DNA of 64,000 nucleotides, from IMG/VR virus record IMGVR_UViG_3300037722_000745, positions 128,001-192,000 of that record; one strand, given 5' to 3'. Made by a program: the position numbers and the translations under genes. The DNA is from a virus. Lineage: Duplodnaviria > Caudoviricetes. Of the stretch, positions 17,499-61,168 are shown piece after piece (within the stretch, counting starts at the first letter, position 1; each line of letters begins with the position of its first letter). The notes beneath the pieces are model-generated. The model made no database searches and was not told the origin of the DNA. It was given only the letters and a program-made list of their open reading frames with translations.

Positions 17499-17502
17499 GT
17501 TC

Positions 17503-17895
17503 CTACACTCCTGTTGTGTTCACCGTTGTTGCGGGTTCTGAAAACTTGCCGCGCAGCTCATCCATCCTCAACAGCTTCAGGACTGCTCCGTAGTCCGAGT
17601 AGAACCCTGCCACGGACTTGAGAAACCGAAGCTGATCCGCTTTCCATGCGAACTTGGCGTCACGCAACCAGATTCGCATTCTCCGGAGGTACTTGAAGTA
17701 TTTGGGCGCTTGCTCAAGCCCCTTGAACTCCTCACTCGCCAACTCAAGATTCGCTTGACGAGACTCCATGTCCTTAAGGATGAGCTGGATCTGCCGCATG
17801 AGAAAGAGATCCCTAGGCCGCCAGCGCTGATGCACTGACTGTAGTTCAGAGCTTTGTTCCTGCTCCAGAATCCAAGGGATGTAGAGATAGCGCAC
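17503..17895 (-). CDS. Hypothetical protein
   Basis: 130-aa ORF closely packed in the operon. Confidence 0.5.
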   Translation of the reverse strand: MRYLYIPWILEQEQSSELQSVHQRWRPRDLFLMRQIQLILKDMESRQANLELASEEFKGLEQAPKYFKYLRRMRIWLRDAKFAWKADQLRFLKSVAGFYSDYGAVLKLLRMDELRGKFSEPATTVNTTGV

Positions 17896-43181: not shown

Positions 43182-43654
43182 TCACCTATAGACAGATCCT
43201 GTCCATACAAATCTATCAAGGATTCCATTGGGCTCCGCTGAACTGCCTTGCTCTGAGCCTCTTTTTGAGCCTTCCGCTCACGCCTTTGCCTCATGAGCAT
43301 CTCTCCCTCTTTTTCAGCTTCTATGAGAGAGATGCGCTCCAAAATACGAGACGATCGACTAGCCCGCATTGAGATCTGATCGATCGACCCAGCGAACCTG
43401 GTCATCACGTTAGCGTAGGTTAGATAGATCGCCGTGGTGTCATCTGACGTGGATCTGCGGGTCCTTTGTACTATCCCCGCAGCTAAGAGATGTATCCGCT
43501 TCCCACGGTCGCGGATCTCTTCCTGCAATCGAGAAATCTCCGTGACCGTGCTAGCCACCGGAGTGAGATCGAACGGTCCGTTTTCAGCACTCACAATGTC
43601 GCCTGGATCCCTAGAAAGAACTGATTGACTGTTTGTGGGGTCTGCGTCACCCAC
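43178..43654 (-). CDS. Coiled-coil hypothetical protein
   Basis: 158-aa helical ORF overlapping the portal start. Confidence 0.5.
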   Translation of the reverse strand: MGDADPTNSQSVLSRDPGDIVSAENGPFDLTPVASTVTEISRLQEEIRDRGKRIHLLAAGIVQRTRRSTSDDTTAIYLTYANVMTRFAGSIDQISMRASRSSRILERISLIEAEKEGEMLMRQRRERKAQKEAQSKAVQRSPMESLIDLYGQDLSIGE

Positions 43655-44154
43655 CCTACACTGACCGCAGGCGCTAACCCACTGCCCGACAGAGACAGTT
43701 CATCCTCTTTTGTCCACAGCCCTCGAAGAGAGAAGTAAAGGGGGTCATTCGGGGCGTAGGCCAATGGGATGAATGGCGGACCCCCTAGCCTAGAAGCGTA
43801 TGTGAATTGCTCGTAGGAGGATGTCGACAACAGGGGGCTACCGGCAAACAGCACAGCATCCCCGTAATAGATCGATCCTCTAGTAGAGCTTACGTGTTGA
43901 TCTGCTGACTCATCCGAACCCCACACCAAGAAGCCACCGAACAAACCAGTAGAGTACGTGACCGTAAAGTGGTCTGAACTCACATCCACCCATTGGACAC
44001 CCTGCCCTCCAGGCCAACCGGCTTGTAACATGGCACCATCCACCCGCACCGGGAACGTGTCGTCCTTCACAAAGACAACACAGTCTCGGGACCGCACTAG
44101 ATCGATACCATGCGAATCGAACTGGAAAGTTCCTGCTGGAGGTGGGAATGGCAT
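43591..44154 (-). CDS. Decoration/cement-like protein, tandem paralog 3
   Basis: RDCVVFVK...GWPGGQGVQW...WGSDES...FSLRG..T.EDE. Confidence 0.6.
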   Translation of the reverse strand: MPFPPPAGTFQFDSHGIDLVRSRDCVVFVKDDTFPVRVDGAMLQAGWPGGQGVQWVDVSSDHFTVTYSTGLFGGFLVWGSDESADQHVSSTRGSIYYGDAVLFAGSPLLSTSSYEQFTYASRLGGPPFIPLAYAPNDPLYFSLRGLWTKEDELSLSGSGLAPAVSVGWVTQTPQTVNQFFLGIQATL

Positions 44155-51876: not shown

Positions 51877-52143
51877 TCAGCCCTTGAGGGGCTCCCCCTT
51901 GTCATCAAATAGCCTCTCAATGTAGTAGCCGTCCCCCTCTTTCTTAAGGGTCCAGAGTTCCCTCTCGCTCCGATGGATCAACGTGTCAGAAGACAGTCGG
52001 ATGAACGGACGAATGTCCGCCATGGACGCCACCTTGGTACGTCCTGTCTGGTGTGGTTTGAGGATATGGGCCTCCCTCTCGAACAAGGCATCTAAGCCTG
52101 TCTCACCGGCCATTCTCATCGCACTCAGATCGAAGTCGTCCAT
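51877..52143 (-). CDS. Small hypothetical protein
   Basis: 88 aa with GAGG RBS; MDDFDLS start resembles MAEFDLS of 48509..50470. Confidence 0.55.
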   Translation of the reverse strand: MDDFDLSAMRMAGETGLDALFEREAHILKPHQTGRTKVASMADIRPFIRLSSDTLIHRSERELWTLKKEGDGYYIERLFDDKGEPLKG

Positions 52144-52150
52144 CCTACCC

Positions 52151-53047
52151 TCACGTAATGTTCAAGGTCACAGTCACATCCACGCTCAGGTTCGAGCTGT
52201 AACCAGTGATCCTCAATGTCTCCGTGTATGTTCCAACAAGCATGCCATCCGAAGGTGCCACCAACACAGTGATCGGTTGTGAGGCCCCGCCGTTGAGTGA
52301 CCCGTAGGTCGGAGAGAAGCTGGCCAGCCAAGTGACCCCTTGCAGTCTCTTCACCTGGAAATCCAACACAGAGGCCGCCGGACCCGAGTTGGTCAACAAG
52401 ATCTGTTGGGACGGAATCGCTGGGAAGGACCCAGTTAGAGGGGCCGCCACATTGAAGGTCAGACTTGTAGGTGCAGGCGAGATCTCCGCCTTTGGTCGCA
52501 CTTCAACCGTCACCGGGATCGTCTGCGGGCTGTTCGGCGCATCCGAAGCTTGCACCGTCAGCTGAGCTGAGTACGGGCTCCCTGTCTCGAGCAAGTTGGT
52601 GCTGTCAACCTGCACATCAAAACTACCCGAGGCGTTCGCCACCAACGCCTCCACAGTGGCCGGTAACGGGTACACGTACGAAACGGATGACGTAACCGTC
52701 GCCGACAACAACGACCCCAGAATCCCATTGTTGGTCAGAAGAACGGACTTAGCGATTGACACCCCCCGACCCTCATCGACGACAAAAACCAAGGTCGTAG
52801 GAGACAAGAGGATGCTTGGCGTGTACGCCTGACGCACCTCATCGATCGAATCCGACATCGCCTTCGCCACATCACCGGGTATCGGCACCATGTCGCGCAG
52901 GAACCCGTACGGGGTGATCACGTCCCGGATCTCGGTCCTCACGACCGCTTGCGACACATCCACACGCGTCGTCCACCTCCAAGGCCCGTCAAGCAAAGTG
53001 ACCTGGAAGTGGTAATCCTGGTGTCGGAGTAGCGATTGACTAGACAA
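52151..53047 (-). CDS. Ig-like (viral BACON-type) domain protein
   Basis: ISPAPTSLTF...ILLTNSG...VTWL..FSPTYGSL...ITVLV...VGTYTETLRIT...VTVTLNI, with a second similar domain upstream. Confidence 0.65.
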   Translation of the reverse strand: MSSQSLLRHQDYHFQVTLLDGPWRWTTRVDVSQAVVRTEIRDVITPYGFLRDMVPIPGDVAKAMSDSIDEVRQAYTPSILLSPTTLVFVVDEGRGVSIAKSVLLTNNGILGSLLSATVTSSVSYVYPLPATVEALVANASGSFDVQVDSTNLLETGSPYSAQLTVQASDAPNSPQTIPVTVEVRPKAEISPAPTSLTFNVAAPLTGSFPAIPSQQILLTNSGPAASVLDFQVKRLQGVTWLASFSPTYGSLNGGASQPITVLVAPSDGMLVGTYTETLRITGYSSNLSVDVTVTLNIT

Positions 53048-53071
53048 GGATAGCCTCGTCTGATCGCACTA

Positions 53072-53080
53072 TATAAAAGA
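53072..53080 (-). promoter_or_regulatory. Candidate late-promoter motif TCTTTTATA at the start of the structural operon
   Basis: AT-rich gap at the replication/structural boundary, 25 nt upstream of 53047. Confidence 0.45.
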
Positions 53081-53112
53081 AAACCCTGGATTTAGGACCT
53101 CACAGGGAAAGG

Positions 53113-53841
53113 TCAGAGGCAGCGATCCACACCACGATTCGCCCATTGAGGCAACTGCACCGCTCTCAGGATGTTGAACTTCTTGCTGCTGATCGACGAG
53201 AATATCTTGTGGTATGGGGTGTAGACCGAAATCTCGTCTCTGACTCCCGCCTGCTCGACTTCCCTCTTAAGGGTGTCAACAGCCTTGAAAAACCGGTGGC
53301 GCACACGACCCTGGGTCAACTGCAACTCCTTGGCGACCTCAGACTGGCAAGTCGTTTTCCACATACCGACCAAGATATTGATATCGATCTGCTCAAACAA
53401 ACCCTTCAAATCTTCCCGCATGTCCTCTTCCAGGACATCCGGTATAGACAAGAGGAACTTGATCCTCTGGATGCCGCGGTCCAAACGGTACGAGATGGCT
53501 GCCTGGGTCACGCCAAAAATAGTGGCAATATCCGCCTGCCTCTTCTTGCAGACGTAGTAGAGGTCGATCAGATCTGCCTCTCGCTTCGGTATTCGGTCAA
53601 GTAACGGCAGAATTCTAGTCTCGTAGTCATCGCCGGAGAACAACGCCTCCACCTCCTCAGCGTCCTCTCGCTCACACTCATCAAGGAGACTGTCAGGATC
53701 GGCGAAACGATTTGCCAGTTCGGCTGGGTCTACCGGAATCACGTATCCGCTTGACATAGATCGCATCCTCCTGCGGCATAGCCGCTTTTCAAACTCACGA
53801 CTCTGGGATCGTGAGCTGACGATCAAAGAACGCAGACACAA
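53113..53841 (-). CDS. Sigma-factor-like protein with two region-4 HTH motifs (likely start MSSGY at 53757)
   Basis: LDRIPKREADLIDLYYVCKKRQADIATIFGVTQAAISYR and CQSEVAKELQLTQGRVRHR. Confidence 0.7.
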   Translation of the reverse strand: MCLRSLIVSSRSQSREFEKRLCRRRMRSMSSGYVIPVDPAELANRFADPDSLLDECEREDAEEVEALFSGDDYETRILPLLDRIPKREADLIDLYYVCKKRQADIATIFGVTQAAISYRLDRGIQRIKFLLSIPDVLEEDMREDLKGLFEQIDINILVGMWKTTCQSEVAKELQLTQGRVRHRFFKAVDTLKREVEQAGVRDEISVYTPYHKIFSSISSKKFNILRAVQLPQWANRGVDRCL

Positions 53842-55591
53842 TAGGACCGGGTTTGATCCCTAAGCCCTCTAACCTGCCCACGACTGTTGTTTGATCTGGA
53901 TTTGATTCGATCTTGGAAAAGGACACGTCCCGCAGCTTCAGCAAGTCCACGTTCTTTCGAACCTGATCTGCATGGGCCCGAAGATTCGAGACCTGAGCTT
54001 TTCCCAACCCTGCAAGGTTAGACCCCAACAGAGCCGACACAGTTCCGTACAGTTTGACTACCTTACCGGAGGTCTTCAACCCAAATCCAGGCACTCCCTG
54101 GATATTGTCCGAGCTGTCTCCGCTCAGAGCACGGAGTTGGACCATGCTCCCGGGTGGAACTCCGTACTCCTTCTCCACCAAGACTGGATCATAGAGCTTC
54201 TCTTTGCCAGCACCCACAGCAGGACAGAGCTGCTGCGTAAACTCCGACACCACTTGCAGAAGATCCCGATCCGTGGTGACCAGGACGTTAGGAGCGCCCG
54301 CAAGGTCGCCTCGAACCAAAGACGCCATCACATCATCAGCTTCTTCTTCGGGGTTGAAGGCTTGATGGACCCCTAATGATGGAAGAGTCTCTTGAAGCCA
54401 CTGCAACCCAAAAGGACGCTCCTCAGAACGAGATGACCGATTGGCTTTGTACGCAGGGTCCATCCTCTTACGGCGTTGGGATGACCCGTCCCAACACACA
54501 TACACAACAGCTCCAGGGAACCTCTTCTTATACGAGCCGAGACTCCTGAGAAAACCGACGATACCACCCGTAGGGCGTCCCTGGTCATCAGTGAGAGAGC
54601 TTAGACCAGGAGCCTCTGAGCACCTGATGTAAAGTTGGGTACCGTCAACGATCAAATTCACGGGTCTGGTCTCTGTCATGCGACTCACGTCTGAGTAGAT
54701 AGTTAGGATTCGTTCAAGAACTGACGTGAGAAAGATCAACTCACGTTGCTTTCTCTCCACCAGATGCACATCAGGAAGGGGGTTCGACAAGGCTACGACC
54801 TGACCTTGCAGCATTAGCCCAGAACACAACCGTTGGAACTCGGTCCATTTCAGATACACGAGACTCAAATCGACTTGAGTGTGGTAGGCCGCAACAAACC
54901 GATAGATCGTAGAGATGCGATTCAACCAGGACTCACAACAAACATACGAGCTAACCGCATTGTAGAATATCTCGATAGGGACCCTAGGCCATTGGAGCAA
55001 GCACTGTGCCGCCCGTATCCAAGATTGAACTGATTCCAGACGAGGTCGATACACGATCAGAGGCGACTTGTGGAGCAGGCGAAGAAACGCCCTGGGCATC
55101 GTGACCAACCGATCAGTCGATCTCAGTTGGATATGCACCGTCACGGCGTCCTGCTCTCTGATTTCCTCTTTGACCACCGCTGAGATGCTTTTGTAGGGTC
55201 CGGAGGTAATTAGAACAGTGTCGCCAATCTCAATCCCCTGATCGACCTCAGCCTTGATCTGTCTCCTCAACTGATCAATCTGAGACTGAGGAACGGTGGC
55301 TATCTTTCTCTCACGCTTAGGCCCCTTCGAGATGTACAAAGGACTCTGTACGTACTTGGTGTCTTCCAACCGGGCATACTGCCCGGGAGAGTGCCGATCG
55401 AGGATAAAGGCGTAACCCTCCATCAGGTAGTGGTAGACACGTTGCTCCCCCCTCTGCACAATCGACGCAGGCACAAAAACCTCAGCATCCCGGATGTGAT
55501 GCCGGATAGAAGCTCGAACCAAATCGGGGTCCTCGCTCTCCGCCTTGGCTGACAACTCAAGTACCACCCACTGTGCGCCTGGCGATTGCAT
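53795..55591 (-). CDS. NusG-like (NGN+KOW) domain fused to a 5'-3' exonuclease (PolI-exo/FEN/T4 RNase H family)
   Basis: QWVVLEL...VFVP...LMEGYAFI (NGN); IEIGDTVLITSGPY (KOW); LIVDG, CWDG, RRKRMDPAYKANR, EADDV, TDRDLLQ and GDSSDNIQGVPGFGLKT (exonuclease), all in one 598-aa frame. Confidence 0.85.
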   Translation of the reverse strand: MQSPGAQWVVLELSAKAESEDPDLVRASIRHHIRDAEVFVPASIVQRGEQRVYHYLMEGYAFILDRHSPGQYARLEDTKYVQSPLYISKGPKRERKIATVPQSQIDQLRRQIKAEVDQGIEIGDTVLITSGPYKSISAVVKEEIREQDAVTVHIQLRSTDRLVTMPRAFLRLLHKSPLIVYRPRLESVQSWIRAAQCLLQWPRVPIEIFYNAVSSYVCCESWLNRISTIYRFVAAYHTQVDLSLVYLKWTEFQRLCSGLMLQGQVVALSNPLPDVHLVERKQRELIFLTSVLERILTIYSDVSRMTETRPVNLIVDGTQLYIRCSEAPGLSSLTDDQGRPTGGIVGFLRSLGSYKKRFPGAVVYVCWDGSSQRRKRMDPAYKANRSSRSEERPFGLQWLQETLPSLGVHQAFNPEEEADDVMASLVRGDLAGAPNVLVTTDRDLLQVVSEFTQQLCPAVGAGKEKLYDPVLVEKEYGVPPGSMVQLRALSGDSSDNIQGVPGFGLKTSGKVVKLYGTVSALLGSNLAGLGKAQVSNLRAHADQVRKNVDLLKLRDVSFSKIESNPDQTTVVGRLEGLGIKPGPIVSAFFDRQLTIPES

Positions 55592-55626
55592 TCCTCTATT
55601 CTCGTGTGCCTACACTGTAACTTAGC

Positions 55627-56925
55627 TTACGGCAACCTCACCGGCGTTCTTTTCCGAAGGGTGTGCTCAAAAAGCTGTCTCCACTCTCTCGGAGACATGT
55701 TTCTCGGCTTCGAGCGTTCCGTTGAGAAGGAACTCACTGACCTTCGTTGGCGCGGCATGGGGACGTTAACGACCTGCCTCTCCAAGTCCGTGTAGTCGTC
55801 CACAGGCTCGACTGGCGCCTTAGGACCAACGCTAGTCGCCTCAACCGAAACGCTCGTCTCTGACGTCGGAGGGGGCACTGCTGTCGGCAAGTGATCCCGA
55901 GTGTGGCTAAAAACAACTATATCTCTCGTCAAACTCAATTTACTCGGGTACTTGGAACTCAGAAACCAATGCGCAAACCTCACAACCTGGTCCCCATACA
56001 GCTTGTACACAGACTCAGCTAACTCAGCATCCACAAACGCAAAGTCTGTGTGCATCCGATGAGCCAGCCGATACGAGTTCATGGCTGCTTCAGCTAGACC
56101 TGCTGCCACATCTTCCGGAGCAACCTGCTCACAGACCCGATCCAAGAACTCAATCGACTTGGACGGCTCCGACAAGCTCAACAGGATTTGGTAGTACAAC
56201 GTGATTGACGACAGATTGAGGTACTCGCGGACATTGTCGACCGTCACCGGCCCCAACTGCGAGATCATCTCCAACTTGTTGACGACATCGCGAACATGAC
56301 CACCCGAATGGTCGATCACGATCAGCACCGCATCATCCTGAGATTCGACCCCCTCCTTCTCCAAGATCATCCTCATCCGCGTGAGAATATCCTCCCTCGA
56401 GACCTTACGGATTGTGTACTCCTCACAACGAGATCGGATTGGACCCCGCACCTTCCCCGCCTCAGTGGTGCAGAACATACCGACCATCTTCTTCTCCTCG
56501 AGAGGCTTAAGGAGAACATCCTGAGCAGCGATGCTCATTCGATGCGCCTCATCGAAGAGATAGATTCTCTTCTTGGCATTAGGTAGGACGTACGCCAACT
56601 CCTCAACGATTGCCCGAATATGGTCAACCGTTCCCTGGCTCGCTGCGTCGCGCTCTACAAACGCTCCAGGACCATCGCTCAAAAACGATTTGCAGTTGTC
56701 GCACTCGTTGCAGGGCTCCGGATCACTGCTGTCAAGACTCTGGCACAGCATCGCCCGAGCGTAGATACGACTCAACGTTGTCTTCCCACGCCCGAAGGCA
56801 CCCGAGAAGATATACGACGTGTCGAATGCCGTCCCGTTCCTCAATCGAGACTTGAGAAGCTGAACAGTGCCTTCTTGCCCTAAGACATCACTGAACCGGA
56901 AGGGTCTATACCTCGTGTCCCACAC
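55627..56925 (-). CDS. dnaX: DNA polymerase III gamma/tau-like clamp-loader ATPase
   Basis: RYRPFRFSDVLGQE, GAFGRGKTT, C...PCNECDNC, DAAS, DEAHRMS, LLKPLEE, IRSRC. Confidence 0.9.
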   Translation of the reverse strand: MWDTRYRPFRFSDVLGQEGTVQLLKSRLRNGTAFDTSYIFSGAFGRGKTTLSRIYARAMLCQSLDSSDPEPCNECDNCKSFLSDGPGAFVERDAASQGTVDHIRAIVEELAYVLPNAKKRIYLFDEAHRMSIAAQDVLLKPLEEKKMVGMFCTTEAGKVRGPIRSRCEEYTIRKVSREDILTRMRMILEKEGVESQDDAVLIVIDHSGGHVRDVVNKLEMISQLGPVTVDNVREYLNLSSITLYYQILLSLSEPSKSIEFLDRVCEQVAPEDVAAGLAEAAMNSYRLAHRMHTDFAFVDAELAESVYKLYGDQVVRFAHWFLSSKYPSKLSLTRDIVVFSHTRDHLPTAVPPPTSETSVSVEATSVGPKAPVEPVDDYTDLERQVVNVPMPRQRRSVSSFSTERSKPRNMSPREWRQLFEHTLRKRTPVRLP

Positions 56926-56927
56926 GA

Positions 56928-57413
56928 CTAGTCTTCGCTCTGCCGGACCTCAGCATCCGTGACTTCCTGCACACGGGCCTGGATATTCAGCCTCTGTGCC
57001 ACCTCCACCATTCCCACCAACCTGTCGTTCCACGCTCCATGGCGATGCAGCACTGACGTGAACTCTTGAATGTCCGGTGTCCGCATGGACCATCGCATTT
57101 CACCAGTGTCCTCGTCCTCTACGCCGGTGCAGAGTTCCAACAAGTGGTCCACCAGCGCTTCACGTTGGCTCATACCCGCTTCGTTCCATTGATCAAGCGC
57201 CACGGTGATGAGGAAGTCCTTCCCGAGCAAGAACTCCATCTCTCCGGTTAGACGCCTAGCCTTCCCCAATACCGGTTGCCCGTTCTTTTGACTAGCCCGA
57301 TCGACGAAGACGTACTCAATCTTCGCAGTAGCCAACTCTGAATGGTAAGTAGGGATGATCTTCCCTGCGATCTCCTCTACTTCCTCTGCCGATCCGTACA
57401 GTTTCTGGGCCAT
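56928..57413 (-). CDS. Phage putative metallopeptidase-like protein with degenerate HExxH
   Basis: VLGKAR...DFLITV...W...REALVDHLLELC...PDIQEF. Confidence 0.6.
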   Translation of the reverse strand: MAQKLYGSAEEVEEIAGKIIPTYHSELATAKIEYVFVDRASQKNGQPVLGKARRLTGEMEFLLGKDFLITVALDQWNEAGMSQREALVDHLLELCTGVEDEDTGEMRWSMRTPDIQEFTSVLHRHGAWNDRLVGMVEVAQRLNIQARVQEVTDAEVRQSED

Positions 57414-57422
57414 CCATGTCTC

Positions 57423-58136
57423 CTATTCTTGCAAGGTAAAAAGGTCTGCTTGAGCCAGCACCGAGTGTACAAACGGAATCACCTGGGCATCGCCCAAGGC
57501 TTCCCATAAGTCACCAGGATCTTTGATCTGCGCACCGTTTACCCTTGGATAGTCGACCGTATACACCTGAAACTCATGACCGTGATCTTTTTGGAACTTC
57601 GAGCAGCCCGACCTCCCAGGTGAGTCCATATCGTACCCCAACCACACTCTACGAACGATCCGCCGAAACACCCTCACCGCAGACTGACTAGCGTGGGCAG
57701 TCAAGGTCGCTACCACGGCTGGCATCGCACGCTGAATAGGGAACAGGTCGAACGCTCCCTCAACCAAATACACGGATCGTGTTGCCCACATCGCCTCGAC
57801 TGCCTGATGGAGCCCAAACAAACACGCCTCTCCTCTGCGGTCCAAGAAGTAGTCCATGTACCTCGAACGACCGCGGTCTACATGTCGGAACTGGAAACCG
57901 CGAACCTCCCCAAGGGTCGTTGTCAGCGGTAAGACGAACACATCATCGAGCTTCTTCCCACCCTTGGCCCAGTTCAGGAAATGCTTCGGTAGACCGGGGA
58001 TCAGCTCCCGATCCAAGTACCCCACCCGATAGAGTCGGGCCTGCTCATCTGATACCCCTCGAGCTAACAGCGACTCCCGAACACGGTCCGAAAGCTGAGA
58101 CTCTGCAAACGCTGTGAGGTCTTCAGGCCACCCCAT
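57423..58136 (-). CDS. DnaG-like primase core (TOPRIM) without Zn-binding domain
   Basis: LLARGV...VGY, VLPL...GEVRGFQFR, VYLVEGAFD, YDMDSPG, KDPGD. Confidence 0.8.
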   Translation of the reverse strand: MGWPEDLTAFAESQLSDRVRESLLARGVSDEQARLYRVGYLDRELIPGLPKHFLNWAKGGKKLDDVFVLPLTTTLGEVRGFQFRHVDRGRSRYMDYFLDRRGEACLFGLHQAVEAMWATRSVYLVEGAFDLFPIQRAMPAVVATLTAHASQSAVRVFRRIVRRVWLGYDMDSPGRSGCSKFQKDHGHEFQVYTVDYPRVNGAQIKDPGDLWEALGDAQVIPFVHSVLAQADLFTLQE

Positions 58137-58155
58137 AAAATCGCCCTACACCACT

Positions 58156-58707
58156 TCATGGGACCACCACCACGAACACTTTGTCCACGCGATAAGCCAG
58201 GATGCCCACGTAGTTGCCTATACGAGTGTACACCCCTGAAGCCACAGGACCTGCGGATACAAGAGCCGCTCCCGGAGGTAGCTCCGAAACGAGGCATCGC
58301 AGTCCTGTCTCCAGGGCCTCAGGCGCCACTACGACCGCTGGACGGACTCCCCTTAGGGTCATCAGCTCACAAGCCTCAGAGACGGTCCTAACCGTCCCCC
58401 AGCCCTCGCGTTCAGCCTCTCGCACCAACGTTTGGTAGAACACCCGAAACAGCGCCGGCTCTTGGTCCAAGGCGCACTCAGAATAACCGTACCGGGCTGT
58501 TCCCGCTCGAGACACCCGAGTCCGCAGGAACCCTCCTCGCATATTCGTCGCTAGTAGAGGTTCGATGTCTCCATCAGCCACATCGATCTCAGTAATTGCC
58601 GGCACCGAGAAGCCCACCTCTCCGGCCCGAGGACGATGGCGCTCGACTGTGAAGAGCTGCGACAGCGCAGAAAACACCGGTTCAGATGTCATCCGCCCAC
58701 TGATCAT
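58156..58707 (-). CDS. Hypothetical protein
   Basis: 183-aa ORF in the operon. Confidence 0.5.
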   Translation of the reverse strand: MISGRMTSEPVFSALSQLFTVERHRPRAGEVGFSVPAITEIDVADGDIEPLLATNMRGGFLRTRVSRAGTARYGYSECALDQEPALFRVFYQTLVREAEREGWGTVRTVSEACELMTLRGVRPAVVVAPEALETGLRCLVSELPPGAALVSAGPVASGVYTRIGNYVGILAYRVDKVFVVVVP

Positions 58708-59320: not shown

Positions 59321-59942
59321 CAGTTTCCGCGGACCCTGTATACCCGATCACAGCATGATCGAGAAACGCTCGATTGTGAGTCACGAGCAAAATTGTGATA
59401 CCAGTCTTACGTGCCAAACCCCGTAGGAAAAGACCAGTCTGATCCACATAGTCCACCGAGACCGCAGCCAAGGTCTCATCCATCACCAACAGTGGCCACT
59501 TCTTTAGCCGCCGGAGAGCCAGAACTTTCAGAATGAGCGAGGCGATACTCGCCGGACCTCCGCCGAAGGCTTCCAGCGGATGGGCTCGAACCGAAACCCG
59601 CTGATTGTCCTCTCGGATGAAGAAGTCGATCGCCAACTTGTTGTAGCGTTGGCTGACTTCCGCTTCAAATGTCAAGTCTTGATCAACGAAGATGGTTTGC
59701 AGGCCCTCTGTGATCACATTCTCGATGGATTGGACATGATCTAGCACTAGGAGATCCATGAGAGCCCGAAACAACTCTCCAACCTTCGTCAATCGATCCA
59801 GTTTCTCTGAAAGGCCATCCACCTCCTTCAGCCGCGAAGACAGATCCCGTTGGAGCTGCCCTCGCAGAGCTTGGAGGCCAGAAGATTTCTCCCTGAGCGA
59901 CTTCAGCCGGATCTGCCCGGCGCGTATCTCGTCACTGCGCAC
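59265..59942 (-). CDS. sbcC: SbcC/Rad50 C-terminal half (coiled coil plus ABC signature, Walker B, H-loop)
   Basis: FGGGPAS (degenerate signature), LLVMDE, LLVTH. Confidence 0.75.
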   Translation of the reverse strand: MRSDEIRAGQIRLKSLREKSSGLQALRGQLQRDLSSRLKEVDGLSEKLDRLTKVGELFRALMDLLVLDHVQSIENVITEGLQTIFVDQDLTFEAEVSQRYNKLAIDFFIREDNQRVSVRAHPLEAFGGGPASIASLILKVLALRRLKKWPLLVMDETLAAVSVDYVDQTGLFLRGLARKTGITILLVTHNRAFLDHAVIGYTGSAETDADGVRYLQLRREAGHAL

Positions 59943-61168
59943 TGGTGTGTCCCTTCCGGCACCTGTTCAACCCCGCTTCCTCCGACCACCGCCCCGGTAG
60001 CCTCATCTAGAAGAAACACGTCAATCGTCCGGAACAAATAGGTGGTCTTACCGTGATCTGGAGTGGCCCGAATACGGAACTCTACTCGGGCCCCCTTTGT
60101 GCCACGAAACAGGTCCAGAAGATACGAGACGTTGACGTTCGCCGTAATCGGGTCTTCGACCTTACAGGTGTCGATCGAATCGATCGCGACTGGCAGGCTA
60201 GTGGCCTGAACCGCCTCGTCTACGCTAGAGAACCAGAAGACTTTCCTTGCCGGGTCAAAGTGCAAACGAACCTTGGTTTGATCCTTCGGGATCGCCGCAC
60301 GCATGAACTGAAGTTGTTCGCGCATAGCTTCAGTGTCCACTTGCGTTATGATGTCATCGTCCAAGTTGAAATAGACGAACCCCTTGTGCACCTCCGCCGT
60401 ACGAGGCCACCCCAGCACATCCCCCTGCGCGTTCTCCGCATAGTAGATATCGGGCAGGGTGTAGACCTTCAGCAACCCCGTCGTCTTACCTAGGAACTTC
60501 TCCAACAGCCCCCCGCCAGGGATCACCAGGCTCTTGTCCTTGAACGCTTCGGTCTTGAAAAAGAACTGACACTTACTATTCATCGCGTAGAGAGTGCCAT
60601 TGACCTTGGCCGCCTGAGAAGGATCGTCCCCAGAGTCAAAGATCTGAATGACTTTGTGCACCTCTGGGGCAACCTTATCGTTATCAGGGGTCGCTATCTC
60701 CCTCGCATGGGGAACTGCTTCCTGAAGCAGTGCAATTGGATACACCTTAGGCTCCTGGTCCCTCACTGCATCAGCGATCTTGCGCTCGAACATCGCCATT
60801 GTTCCAGGGTTGAAAGACACTCGATCGACCTCTCCAGAGGCTCCGAAGCGGTACACGACCTTGTAACTATCCCCTTCCATCCCAACACTGAACTGGATAG
60901 GGCCCTTGATGAAGTTGAACTCGTCGGAGTTCTCCGCCGGGTACATGAAAGCGCCTTCCCCACTCACCTCAGTGATCGGGAAGGACGACCGAGCTTGAAA
61001 TGCAGCTCCAGACCCAGACCCTCGTGAGTAGACCCTGCACACCTCGCCTTGGACCACCATCAGGTACCCACGACTTTGAGTCGCATCCGTCCCTTGTGGT
61101 TGGACAATCGAGACCGTTTTGAGGGCTCTCTTCAGAGCACTCGCATCCACTGTGAATTTGATGTCCAT
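59903..61168 (-). CDS. Probable DNA sliding clamp (beta-clamp-like)
   Basis: MDIKFTVDASALKRALKTV start, ANVNVSYLLDLF near the C-terminus; about 420 aa next to clamp loader and primase. Confidence 0.55.
   Translation of the reverse strand: MDIKFTVDASALKRALKTVSIVQPQGTDATQSRGYLMVVQGEVCRVYSRGSGSGAAFQARSSFPITEVSGEGAFMYPAENSDEFNFIKGPIQFSVGMEGDSYKVVYRFGASGEVDRVSFNPGTMAMFERKIADAVRDQEPKVYPIALLQEAVPHAREIATPDNDKVAPEVHKVIQIFDSGDDPSQAAKVNGTLYAMNSKCQFFFKTEAFKDKSLVIPGGGLLEKFLGKTTGLLKVYTLPDIYYAENAQGDVLGWPRTAEVHKGFVYFNLDDDIITQVDTEAMREQLQFMRAAIPKDQTKVRLHFDPARKVFWFSSVDEAVQATSLPVAIDSIDTCKVEDPITANVNVSYLLDLFRGTKGARVEFRIRATPDHGKTTYLFRTIDVFLLDEATGAVVGGSGVEQVPEGTHQCAVTRYAPGRSG

What the first reader, a model, noticed from the sequence alone, without database searches (positions are those of the whole stretch)
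53795..55591. NusG-5'-3' exonuclease fusion: a possible RNAP-tethered nuclease (torpedo or R-loop resolver)
Seen: one uninterrupted frame holds NGN+KOW (aa 1-172), a ~140-aa helical spacer with ~35-aa quasi-repeats (SWLNRISTIY, SVLERILTIY) and a 5'-3' exonuclease with its acidic motifs intact (from aa ~311); no strong RBS precedes the internal Met305. Known: NusG/Spt5 binds the RNAP clamp; 5'-3' exonucleases terminate transcription by the torpedo route (Rat1/Xrn2, archaeal FttA aided by Spt4/5, RNase J1); the PolI-exo/FEN family removes RNA primers and flaps. Inference: the phage tethers a nuclease to elongating RNAP for host shut-off, termination, R-loop removal, or T4-like coupling of late transcription to DNA nicks. 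I know no characterised protein with this architecture.
Basis: partly seen in the sequence, partly recalled or inferred. Interest (0 to 1): 0.75.

Follow-up and report, generated by a model that had tools for sequence, protein, structure and literature searches.

The report
Huge-phage NusG fused to flap nuclease
A family of uncultured huge phages joins a copy of the universal transcription-elongation factor NusG to their only DNA flap nuclease in one protein, which probably places a replication/repair nuclease on the host's RNA polymerase; no paper in the searched library describes it.

Summary
The 598-aa ORF (53795-55591, minus strand) is real. Folds and profiles confirm four parts: NusG-type NGN (aa 7-112), KOW barrel (118-175), four long helices (177-306), and a PolI-type 5' nuclease/FEN (312-598) with every catalytic carboxylate invariant. 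The claimed ~35-aa quasi-repeats are not supported.

Over 130 protein clusters carry the fusion, often on contigs of 100-550 kb. All four parts are under purifying selection. The gene always lies between the DnaX clamp loader and a sigma-like gene. That slot holds three forms: NusG-like alone, NusG-like+helices followed by a separate, tightly adjacent FEN gene, or the fusion. Split forms arose at least three times. Relatives fuse the same module to HTH domains or to a sigma factor.

In three genomes of 68-87% estimated completeness the fusion is the only PolI-type FEN found. The module keeps the RNAP-binding hallmark (G59, Y60, F62) but has lost NusG's Rho-contact loop.

Best reading (about 0.5): a specialised phage NusG paralogue that tethers the phage flap/RNA-primer nuclease to host RNA polymerase. 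RNAP binding and the substrate are inferred. A torpedo role is unlikely.

This scan found the family before on other DNA (e1-5401117, e1-5391377). No paper in the searched library describes it.

The parts
53795..55591 (-). Whole NusG-FEN fusion gene, 598 aa plus stop (P0001)
   Evidence: full-length homologues in over 130 clusters
55592..55597 (-). AGAGGA Shine-Dalgarno-like site directly abutting the ATG
   Evidence: the start matches the homologues' N-termini (M, 5-6 residues, then WVVLEL)
55256..55573 (-). NGN domain, aa 7-112; invariant W8, P41, L56, G59, Y60, F62
   Evidence: Pfam NusG hit in 23 of 40 members
55067..55240 (-). KOW five-strand barrel, aa 118-175; invariant G131, L156, S158, P166, R167 (R157 nearly invariant)
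54674..55063 (-). Four long helices, aa 177-306: a fast-evolving spacer or adaptor of no known family
   Evidence: structure; 23% mean pairwise identity; dN/dS 0.14; no Atlas hit
54677..54679 (-). Internal Met305 codon, 7 residues before the nuclease's first strand; a relic of the FEN gene's start or a minor internal start
   Evidence: a Met within 10 aa of this point in 33 of 40 homologues
54161..54658 (-). 5' nuclease N-terminal (resolvase-like) domain, aa 312-477, with D316, D368, E417, D419, D420, D441, D443
53798..54160 (-). 5' nuclease H3TH/SAM-fold domain and closing helices, aa 478-598, with D492 and D495
   Evidence: AFDB PolI 5'-nuclease matches run to residue 598
55627..56925 (-). 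DnaX-like clamp-loader gene, invariant upstream neighbour
53113..53757 (-). Sigma-70-family (region 4) gene, invariant downstream neighbour; likely start ATG 53757 with AGGAGG 9 nt upstream

Best explanation
The gene encodes a specialised, phage-specific NusG paralogue. Its NGN domain rides on the host RNA polymerase elongation complex. Behind a KOW barrel and a four-helix spacer it carries the phage's only PolI-type 5' flap endonuclease. The nuclease is thereby held at or just behind transcribing polymerase on replicating phage DNA. There it would remove 5' flaps, nick-adjacent RNA primers or the RNA of RNA:DNA hybrids (R-loops), while the NusG module probably also acts as an elongation/antitermination factor alongside the neighbouring phage sigma-like factor. 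Shown here: the four-part architecture; an intact nuclease active site; NusG-superfamily fold with the RNAP-contact hallmark residues; purifying selection on all four parts; a fixed gene slot; and repeated fusion/fission with FEN. Inferred: RNAP binding, the substrate, and the benefit to the phage.
For: (1) NGN+KOW fold and profile matches to NusG/RfaH/Spt5. (2) The strand that forms the beta' clamp-helix-binding patch is kept. Invariant L56, G59, Y60 and F62 align to 'LFPGYVFV' of T. maritima NusG. F62 falls where RfaH has F56, a residue required for RNAP binding (PMC7593976). (3) NGN and KOW are at least as constrained as the nuclease: 57/65% vs 61/57% mean identity; dN/dS 0.06/0.02 vs 0.08. 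(4) The module always sits next to a sigma-like gene (43 of 43 loci). A relative fuses it to sigma r2+r4 (P0150), and others fuse it to HTH domains. (5) NusG-like and FEN occur fused, as tightly adjacent separate genes (gene ends from a 4-nt overlap to a 3-nt gap) or adjacent in a deep branch. Split forms arose at three or more positions in the tree. This is a Rosetta-stone pattern of functional linkage. (6) All FEN carboxylates are invariant. (7) It is the only 5_3_exonuc gene in G000, G004 and G005. PolA is a separate gene, and no RNase H1 was found. (8) No phage RNAP was detected, so the partner would be the host enzyme.
Against: RNAP binding was not tested and the host is unknown. The single-sequence NGN match is below the Pfam cut-off (13.9 bits). 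A FEN needs a free 5' end, and how an RNAP-tethered FEN would reach one is unclear. The gene lies at the end of a replication module, so the fusion could be a tolerated join of neighbours. A Met near the nuclease start in 33 of 40 members leaves room for a free nuclease product. Stand-alone-NusG relatives show no FEN in what was recovered of their genomes, so the FEN is not essential to the NusG-like factor. The genome records are 15-87% complete.
Confidence: 0.5

Rival explanations
1. Two independent functions in one chain. A phage NusG-like elongation factor and a replication FEN were neighbours at a module boundary and became joined (and re-split) without mechanistic coupling; each part works on its own.
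For: Adjacency without fusion exists (L015), as do split forms. The slot is the border between replication genes and the sigma-like gene. The spacer is poorly conserved (23% identity). A Met sits near the nuclease start in 33 of 40 members.
Against: The fusion persists down to 37% overall identity in over 130 clusters. The 130-aa helical domain is under purifying selection (dN/dS 0.14). It was absent from the stand-alone forms I examined. Split genes remain directly adjacent, from a 4-nt overlap to a 3-nt gap.
Confidence: 0.2
2. Replisome adaptor. The NGN-KOW module no longer binds RNAP and has been recruited to dock the FEN onto the phage replisome (clamp loader, clamp, primase or SSB) for Okazaki-fragment maturation.
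For: The gene follows primase, metallopeptidase and DnaX in every locus. It is the only FEN found. The KOW loop that binds Rho in NusG (I164-F165-G166) is replaced by L156-R157-S158 (L156 and S158 invariant, R157 nearly so), which implies a different partner.
Against: The NGN RNAP-contact hallmark is invariant. Stand-alone versions occupy the same slot with no FEN in what was recovered of those genomes, so the module has a FEN-independent role. The same module is fused to sigma and to HTH domains in relatives. No NGN domain is known to me to bind anything other than RNAP (own knowledge).
Confidence: 0.15
3. Torpedo terminator or host shut-off. The tethered nuclease degrades nascent RNA 5'-to-3', or nicks DNA in host elongation complexes, to terminate transcription.
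For: Precedent for a nuclease recruited through a NusG-family protein: archaeal FttA with Spt4/5. The Spt5 chain of that complex (9bct_G) is among the fold hits. From my own knowledge, Xrn-type nucleases share a distant fold with FEN.
Against: The domain is a PolI-type, structure-specific 5' nuclease. The Pfam scan found no match to the torpedo RNase families. As the genome's only FEN found, it probably has a DNA-replication duty. A phage that depends on host RNAP gains little from a general terminator travelling with it.
Confidence: 0.07

Closest known systems
Specialised NusG paralogues (RfaH, LoaP, UpxY, ActX/TaA)
   Same: NGN+KOW architecture. Loss of the housekeeping NusG Rho-contact loop. 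A Phe at the position of RfaH F56. Encoded on a mobile element, next to the genes it presumably serves.
   Different: Scores far below the curated cut-offs of all named subfamilies (nusG 26.3 bits vs 135.7; UpxY, LoaP and RfaH lower still). Carries a 130-aa helical domain and a complete nuclease, which no described paralogue has.
Archaeal FttA (aCPSF1) working with Spt4/5
   Same: A 5' nuclease brought to the elongation complex by a NusG-family protein.
   Different: There the link is non-covalent, the nuclease is a beta-CASP RNase, and the outcome is termination. Here the link is covalent (or between adjacent genes) and the nuclease is a PolI-type FEN.
Pol I 5' nuclease domain, T4 RNase H, T5 D15 and bacterial FenA/ExoIX-type FENs
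   Same: Same fold and the full set of metal-binding carboxylates and H3TH motif. Probable role in removing RNA primers and 5' flaps.
   Different: Those enzymes stand alone or are fused to a DNA polymerase; none is joined to a transcription factor.
T4 late transcription (sliding clamp gp45 with gp33 and sigma-like gp55)
   Same: A physical link between replication machinery and host RNAP in a large phage; clamp loader, clamp and a sigma-like factor are encoded close by.
   Different: No homology. No clamp-binding tail was found: the C-terminal helix belongs to the nuclease fold.
Uncharacterised phage NusG/RfaH-like proteins in BFVD (for example A0A6J5PZH6, A0A6J5MAV8)
   Same: Phage-encoded NGN+KOW proteins, like the stand-alone members of this family.
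   Different: About 170-220 aa, with no nuclease.

Membership tests
NusG/Spt5 superfamily | N-terminal NGN alpha/beta domain | tested here: met
   RfaH NGN 8pen_P Z 9.9, rmsd 3.3 A over 97 residues; T. thermophilus NGN Z 7.7, rmsd 3.2 A over 100 residues; Foldseek top hits all NusG/RfaH/Spt5
NusG/Spt5 superfamily | KOW beta-barrel following the NGN | tested here: met
   M. tuberculosis NusG CTD: Z 9.3, rmsd 2.4 A, 62 aligned; Foldseek rmsd 1.8 A, TM by target 0.82. Pfam KOW in 31 of 40 members
NusG/Spt5 superfamily | Sequence-profile membership (Pfam PF02357, cut-off 22.2 bits) | tested here: inconclusive
   This protein scores 13.9 bits. 23 of 40 members match at E<0.1. Relatives P0146, P0153 and P0172 pass the cut-off. 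Family profile vs T. maritima NusG E 2.5e-8
NusG/Spt5 superfamily | Conserved strand forming the beta' clamp-helix-binding patch (FPGY-x-[FL]-V) | tested here: met
   Invariant L56, G59, Y60 and F62 align to LFPGYVFV; the Pro is replaced by Asp/Glu; role of RfaH F56 from PMC7593976
NusG/Spt5 superfamily | Binds the RNAP elongation complex | not testable with these tools
   Host unknown; no binding job was run on this pair
Housekeeping bacterial NusG | Curated equivalog score (TIGR00922, 135.7 bits) | tested here: not met
   26.3 bits
Housekeeping bacterial NusG | Rho-contact KOW loop I164-F165-G166 | tested here: not met
   Aligned positions are L156-R157-S158 (L156 and S158 invariant, R157 nearly so); loop role from PMC7593976
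RfaH / UpxY / LoaP | Curated NCBIfam cut-offs | tested here: not met
   UpxY 22.7 bits vs 100; LoaP 22.1 vs 125; RfaH 16 vs 124
RfaH | KOW that folds as an alpha-hairpin masking the NGN (autoinhibition) | tested here: inconclusive
   AF2 predicts a beta-barrel KOW. Whether the following helices mask the NGN could not be read, because model coordinates are not exposed
PolI-type 5'-3' exonuclease / FEN (PF02739 + PF01367) | Both Pfam domains above gathering score | tested here: met
   85 bits vs 34.3 and 51 bits vs 40
PolI-type 5'-3' exonuclease / FEN (PF02739 + PF01367) | Complete set of metal-binding carboxylates and the H3TH GD-x-SDN motif | tested here: met
   D316, D368, E417, D419, D420, D441, D443, D492 and D495 aligned to Taq and invariant in 40 sequences
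PolI-type 5'-3' exonuclease / FEN (PF02739 + PF01367) | Flap/5'-exonuclease activity | not testable with these tools
   Needs an enzyme assay
Torpedo exoribonucleases (Xrn/Rat1, RNase J, FttA) | XRN or beta-CASP/metallo-beta-lactamase catalytic domain | tested here: not met
   The Pfam scan at E<=1 lists only the two 5_3_exonuc domains and KOW models

The most novel reading that the evidence does not exclude
The protein is a physical coupler of replication and transcription of a new kind. Its FEN recognises 5' flaps, nicks or RNA primers on freshly replicated phage DNA, while its NusG module holds host RNAP. Either late transcription is licensed by replication intermediates (a functional analogue of the T4 clamp-gp33-gp55 system, built from unrelated parts), or Okazaki-primer and R-loop removal becomes transcription-coupled. 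The wider family, in which the same module is joined to FEN, HTH domains or sigma, would then be a general phage strategy of hanging DNA-acting domains on RNAP through NusG.
Probability: 0.25. Interest if true: 0.85.

Novelty: new variant of a known kind. Interest (0 to 1): 0.65.

Why it matters
NusG/Spt5 is the only transcription factor conserved in all domains of life, and its KOW domain is known as a docking site for partners such as Rho, the ribosome and, in archaea, FttA. A lineage that hard-wires a DNA flap nuclease to it would be the first case I know of a nucleic-acid-cutting enzyme covalently carried by a NusG-family factor. It would also give a direct handle on how very large phage genomes reconcile heavy transcription with replication: R-loops, primer removal and transcription-replication conflicts. 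The natural series of stand-alone, split and fused forms in one gene slot is a ready-made experiment for asking what the tether adds.

Tried and rejected
1. Complex prediction on the natural split pair from L012 (N-part P0099 with its separate FEN) gave no verdict (score 0.00, controls not run). It is not evidence either way.
3. The cultured/GenBank phage collection holds no full-length match; only the nuclease part hits.
4. Atlas search by features on the helical part (aa 176-310) gave no usable hit. Its fold is therefore untested, not new.
5. Clamp-binding tail idea: the conserved C-terminal '...L-x-A-F-F' looked like a PIP or beta-clamp motif. But PolI 5'-nuclease models align through residue 598 and the helix is confidently folded. 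I dropped the idea.
6. The promoter/terminator scan of 52000-58300 found nothing above shuffled expectation.
7. Quasi-repeat: BLASTP of the two halves of the spacer found nothing. hhalign gave a weak helix 2 vs helix 3 match (probability 92%, 13% identity).
8. Internal start at Met305: the upstream SD is weak in the window (GTGAG) and variable in L005 and L006. It is neither supported nor excluded.
9. The AlphaFold DB cluster search with the full model returned only nuclease matches; no cellular NusG-FEN architecture surfaced.
Full report
OBSERVATION. The window holds one uninterrupted 598-codon frame at 53795-55591 on the minus strand. Its ATG directly abuts an AGAGGA site, and its N-terminus matches that of its homologues. 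The C-terminal half is a PolI-type 5' nuclease. PF02739 covers aa 313-477 (E 6e-24) and PF01367 covers aa 478-555 (E 2e-13), both above Pfam's cut-offs. The Taq Pol I 5' nuclease matches at E 1e-26, with D316, D368, E417, D419, D420, D441, D443, D492 and D495 aligned to its acidic residues.

The N-terminal part is only weakly recognised by single-sequence profiles. KOW scores 19.5 bits, the NGN model 13.9 bits, and PHROG 'transcription antiterminator' gives E 3e-8. An AlphaFold2 model built on 40 homologues (pLDDT 84.5 for the whole protein, 88.9 for aa 1-310) shows four parts: an alpha/beta domain at aa 7-112, a five-strand barrel at aa 125-174, four long helices at aa 177-306, and the nuclease.

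Fold searches of the N-terminal model return NusG, RfaH and Spt5 throughout the top ranks. The best Foldseek hit is E 1.7e-9. VIA gives Spt5 Z 10.8 (rmsd 8.3 A over 141 residues), RfaH NGN Z 9.9 (rmsd 3.3 A over 97 residues) and NusG KOW Z 9.3 (rmsd 2.4 A over 62 residues). The family profile finds T. maritima NusG at E 2.5e-8.

The two decamers lie 69 aa apart, are not conserved, and BLASTP sees no repeat. The remark that no strong SD precedes Met305 is correct.

A CONSERVED FAMILY. A search with the non-nuclease part found 94 clusters, nearly all 550-690 aa and carrying both nuclease Pfam domains, on contigs up to 549 kb. JGI's automatic names already read '5'-3' exonuclease/transcription antitermination factor NusG'. 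In a 40-member alignment (37-66% identity to the query) the mean pairwise identity is 57% for NGN, 65% for KOW, 23% for the helices and 61/57% for the two nuclease domains. From the few gene pairs with unsaturated synonymous divergence (n = 4), dN/dS is 0.06, 0.02, 0.14 and 0.08 respectively. So the NusG-like module is at least as constrained as the enzyme. The spacer evolves fast but is not drifting.

ONE SLOT, THREE ARCHITECTURES. In the window and in every related locus the order is Toprim primase, phage metallopeptidase, DnaX clamp loader, the NusG-like gene, then a sigma-70-family (region 4) gene. Of 43 loci from the viral contig collection, 38 are fused and 5 are stand-alone. All 43 have DnaX upstream and the sigma-like gene downstream. 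The search patterns favour the fused clade, so these proportions are biased.

An exhaustive profile search with NGN+KOW alone found 376 representative proteins.
- The strongest matches are mostly fused forms.
- Five representative clusters stop exactly at the helix/nuclease border. For three of these clusters, on five contigs from different assemblies, the next gene is a separate FEN, with gene ends from a 4-nt overlap to a 3-nt gap and with clear SD sites inside the end of the upstream gene (L007, L010/L011, L012/L013).
- A second tier consists of NusG-sized proteins of about 165-190 aa. One (P0167) occupies the same slot with no FEN. A deep-branching one (P0173) is followed directly by a 341-aa FEN gene.
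- Other relatives carry the module fused to HTH_3/CI-type HTH domains (P0153, P0156, P0157), to an unknown 223-aa extension (P0172, same slot), or placed after sigma regions 2 and 4 in one chain (P0150).

A quick maximum-likelihood tree of the module (140 representatives, SH-aLRT support only, many forks unresolved) separates a stand-alone-rich half from a FEN-linked half. It needs at least three separate changes to explain the split forms. The NusG-FEN link is therefore old, has been made or broken repeatedly, and is kept.

GENOME INVENTORY. The window's genome is a 323-kb viral record, 68% complete by CheckV. Another note of this scan says it carries Cas12j.
- This gene is its only 5_3_exonuc match.
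- A family-A DNA polymerase is a separate gene elsewhere.
- No DnaE, RNase H1, RNAP beta or beta' was found. The T7-type RNAP search also found nothing, but its control genomes were all silent, so that result is uninformative.
- A probable sliding clamp lies nearby at 59906-61168 (PHROG processivity factor, E 3e-7).
- In two further fused-type genomes (323 kb; 417 kb at 87% complete) the fusion is again the only FEN. Three stand-alone-type records (15-66% complete) show none.

So where this FEN exists it is probably the phage's primer/flap nuclease. The partner polymerase of the NusG module would be the host's. All absences carry the caveat of incomplete genomes and divergent families.

WHICH KIND OF NusG. 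The invariant residues W8, P41, L56, G59, Y60 and F62 align with the NusG hallmarks 'KWY', 'VP' and 'LFPGYVFV'. The last is the strand of the hydrophobic patch that binds the beta' clamp helices. RfaH F56, required for RNAP binding, falls at the position of F62 (PMC7593976). By contrast, the KOW loop I164-F165-G166 that contacts Rho in NusG (PMC7593976) is aligned to L156-R157-S158, of which L156 and S158 are invariant and R157 nearly so. NCBIfam scores for nusG, UpxY, LoaP and RfaH all lie far below their cut-offs. This is a divergent, specialised member of the superfamily. It has a preserved RNAP-contact signature and a KOW surface conserved for some other partner.

MECHANISM. I commit, at about 0.5, to an RNAP-tethered flap/hybrid nuclease. 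The NGN binds the host elongation complex, and the KOW and helices project the FEN towards upstream DNA and the RNA exit side. The FEN would then remove 5' flaps, primer RNA or R-loop RNA on replicating phage DNA, while the NusG module also supports phage transcription together with the sigma-like neighbour. The architecture, active site, selection and linkage are shown. Binding, substrate and benefit are inferred. The weak point is geometric: a FEN needs a free 5' end, and I cannot say how a tethered one finds it.

The rivals are as follows.
- Two independent functions joined by chance at a module border (0.2).
- A replisome adaptor that no longer binds RNAP (0.15).
This one is disfavoured because the enzyme is a structure-specific PolI-type FEN with no Pfam match to the torpedo RNase families, and because it is the genome's only FEN found.

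KNOWN OR NEW. The held library contains no paper with NusG together with 'jumbo phage' or 'huge phage', and none with NusG, exonuclease and huge phages. The only two papers with NusG, flap endonuclease and fusion are origin-of-life reviews. The 2021 NusG review never uses 'nuclease', 'fused' or 'fusion'. Phage NusG/RfaH-like proteins exist in BFVD but are stand-alone and uncharacterised. The AlphaFold DB cluster search showed no cellular counterpart of the architecture.

This scan has reported the same family on two other genomes (e1-5401117, e1-5391377), with the same overall reading. New here are:
- the three-state slot and the recurrent split forms;
- the sigma and HTH fusions placed on a tree;
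- the per-domain selection figures;
- the loss of the Rho-contact loop;
- the apparent absence of a FEN from what was recovered of stand-alone-type genomes.

I class it as a new variant of a known kind: a specialised NusG paralogue carrying an unprecedented enzymatic cargo.

LIMITS. The complex-prediction job on a natural split pair gave no verdict. The host is unknown.

Noticed in passing
window 53113-53841 (-): The sigma-like ORF listed from TTG 53841 would overlap the fusion's 3' end by 47 nt. An ATG at 53757 with AGGAGG 9 nt upstream gives 214 aa, matching the homologues (203-231 aa). The protein shows two region-4-like HTH hits and no detectable region 2.
   Followed up: partly
window 55609-55615, 58145-58151, 43655-43661, 17502-17508 (all -): GTGTAGG occurs 7 times in the window (5.6 expected by chance). 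Six copies are on the coding strand, and four lie 1-18 nt upstream of start codons (the fusion, the primase, and the ORFs starting at 43654 and 17498). It may be part of a translation or promoter signal; compare the GGTGTAG motif noted elsewhere in this genome.
   Followed up: partly
L014:3612-5237 (P0150): A 541-aa protein joins sigma-70 regions 2 and 4 to a C-terminal NGN-KOW module of this family, on an 18-kb contig next to a DEAD/ResIII helicase and a Ku gene. Sigma region 2 and NGN are known to bind the same beta' clamp-helix site (own knowledge), so this looks like a built-in initiation-to-elongation hand-off.
   Followed up: no
P0153, P0156, P0157; L016:5001-6188 (P0172): Relatives of the NusG-like module carry C-terminal HTH_3 or CI-repressor HTH domains, or an unidentified 223-aa extension in the same DnaX/sigma slot. 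This suggests the module is a general platform for DNA-acting domains.
   Followed up: partly
window 56928-57413 (-): A 'phage metallopeptidase' (PF18894, E 2e-25) sits between the primase and the clamp loader in every related locus. That is an odd but strictly conserved member of the replication cassette.
   Followed up: no
window 59906-61168 (-): A 421-aa protein with no Pfam hit matches PHROG 'DNA polymerase processivity factor' (E 3e-7) over aa 275-366. It is probably a divergent beta-clamp-like sliding clamp.
   Followed up: partly
L015:6567-8024 (-): In the deep-branching locus with a stand-alone NusG-like gene plus an adjacent FEN gene, a 485-aa HEAT-repeat-like gene on the opposite strand is inserted between the FEN and the sigma-like gene.
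   Followed up: no
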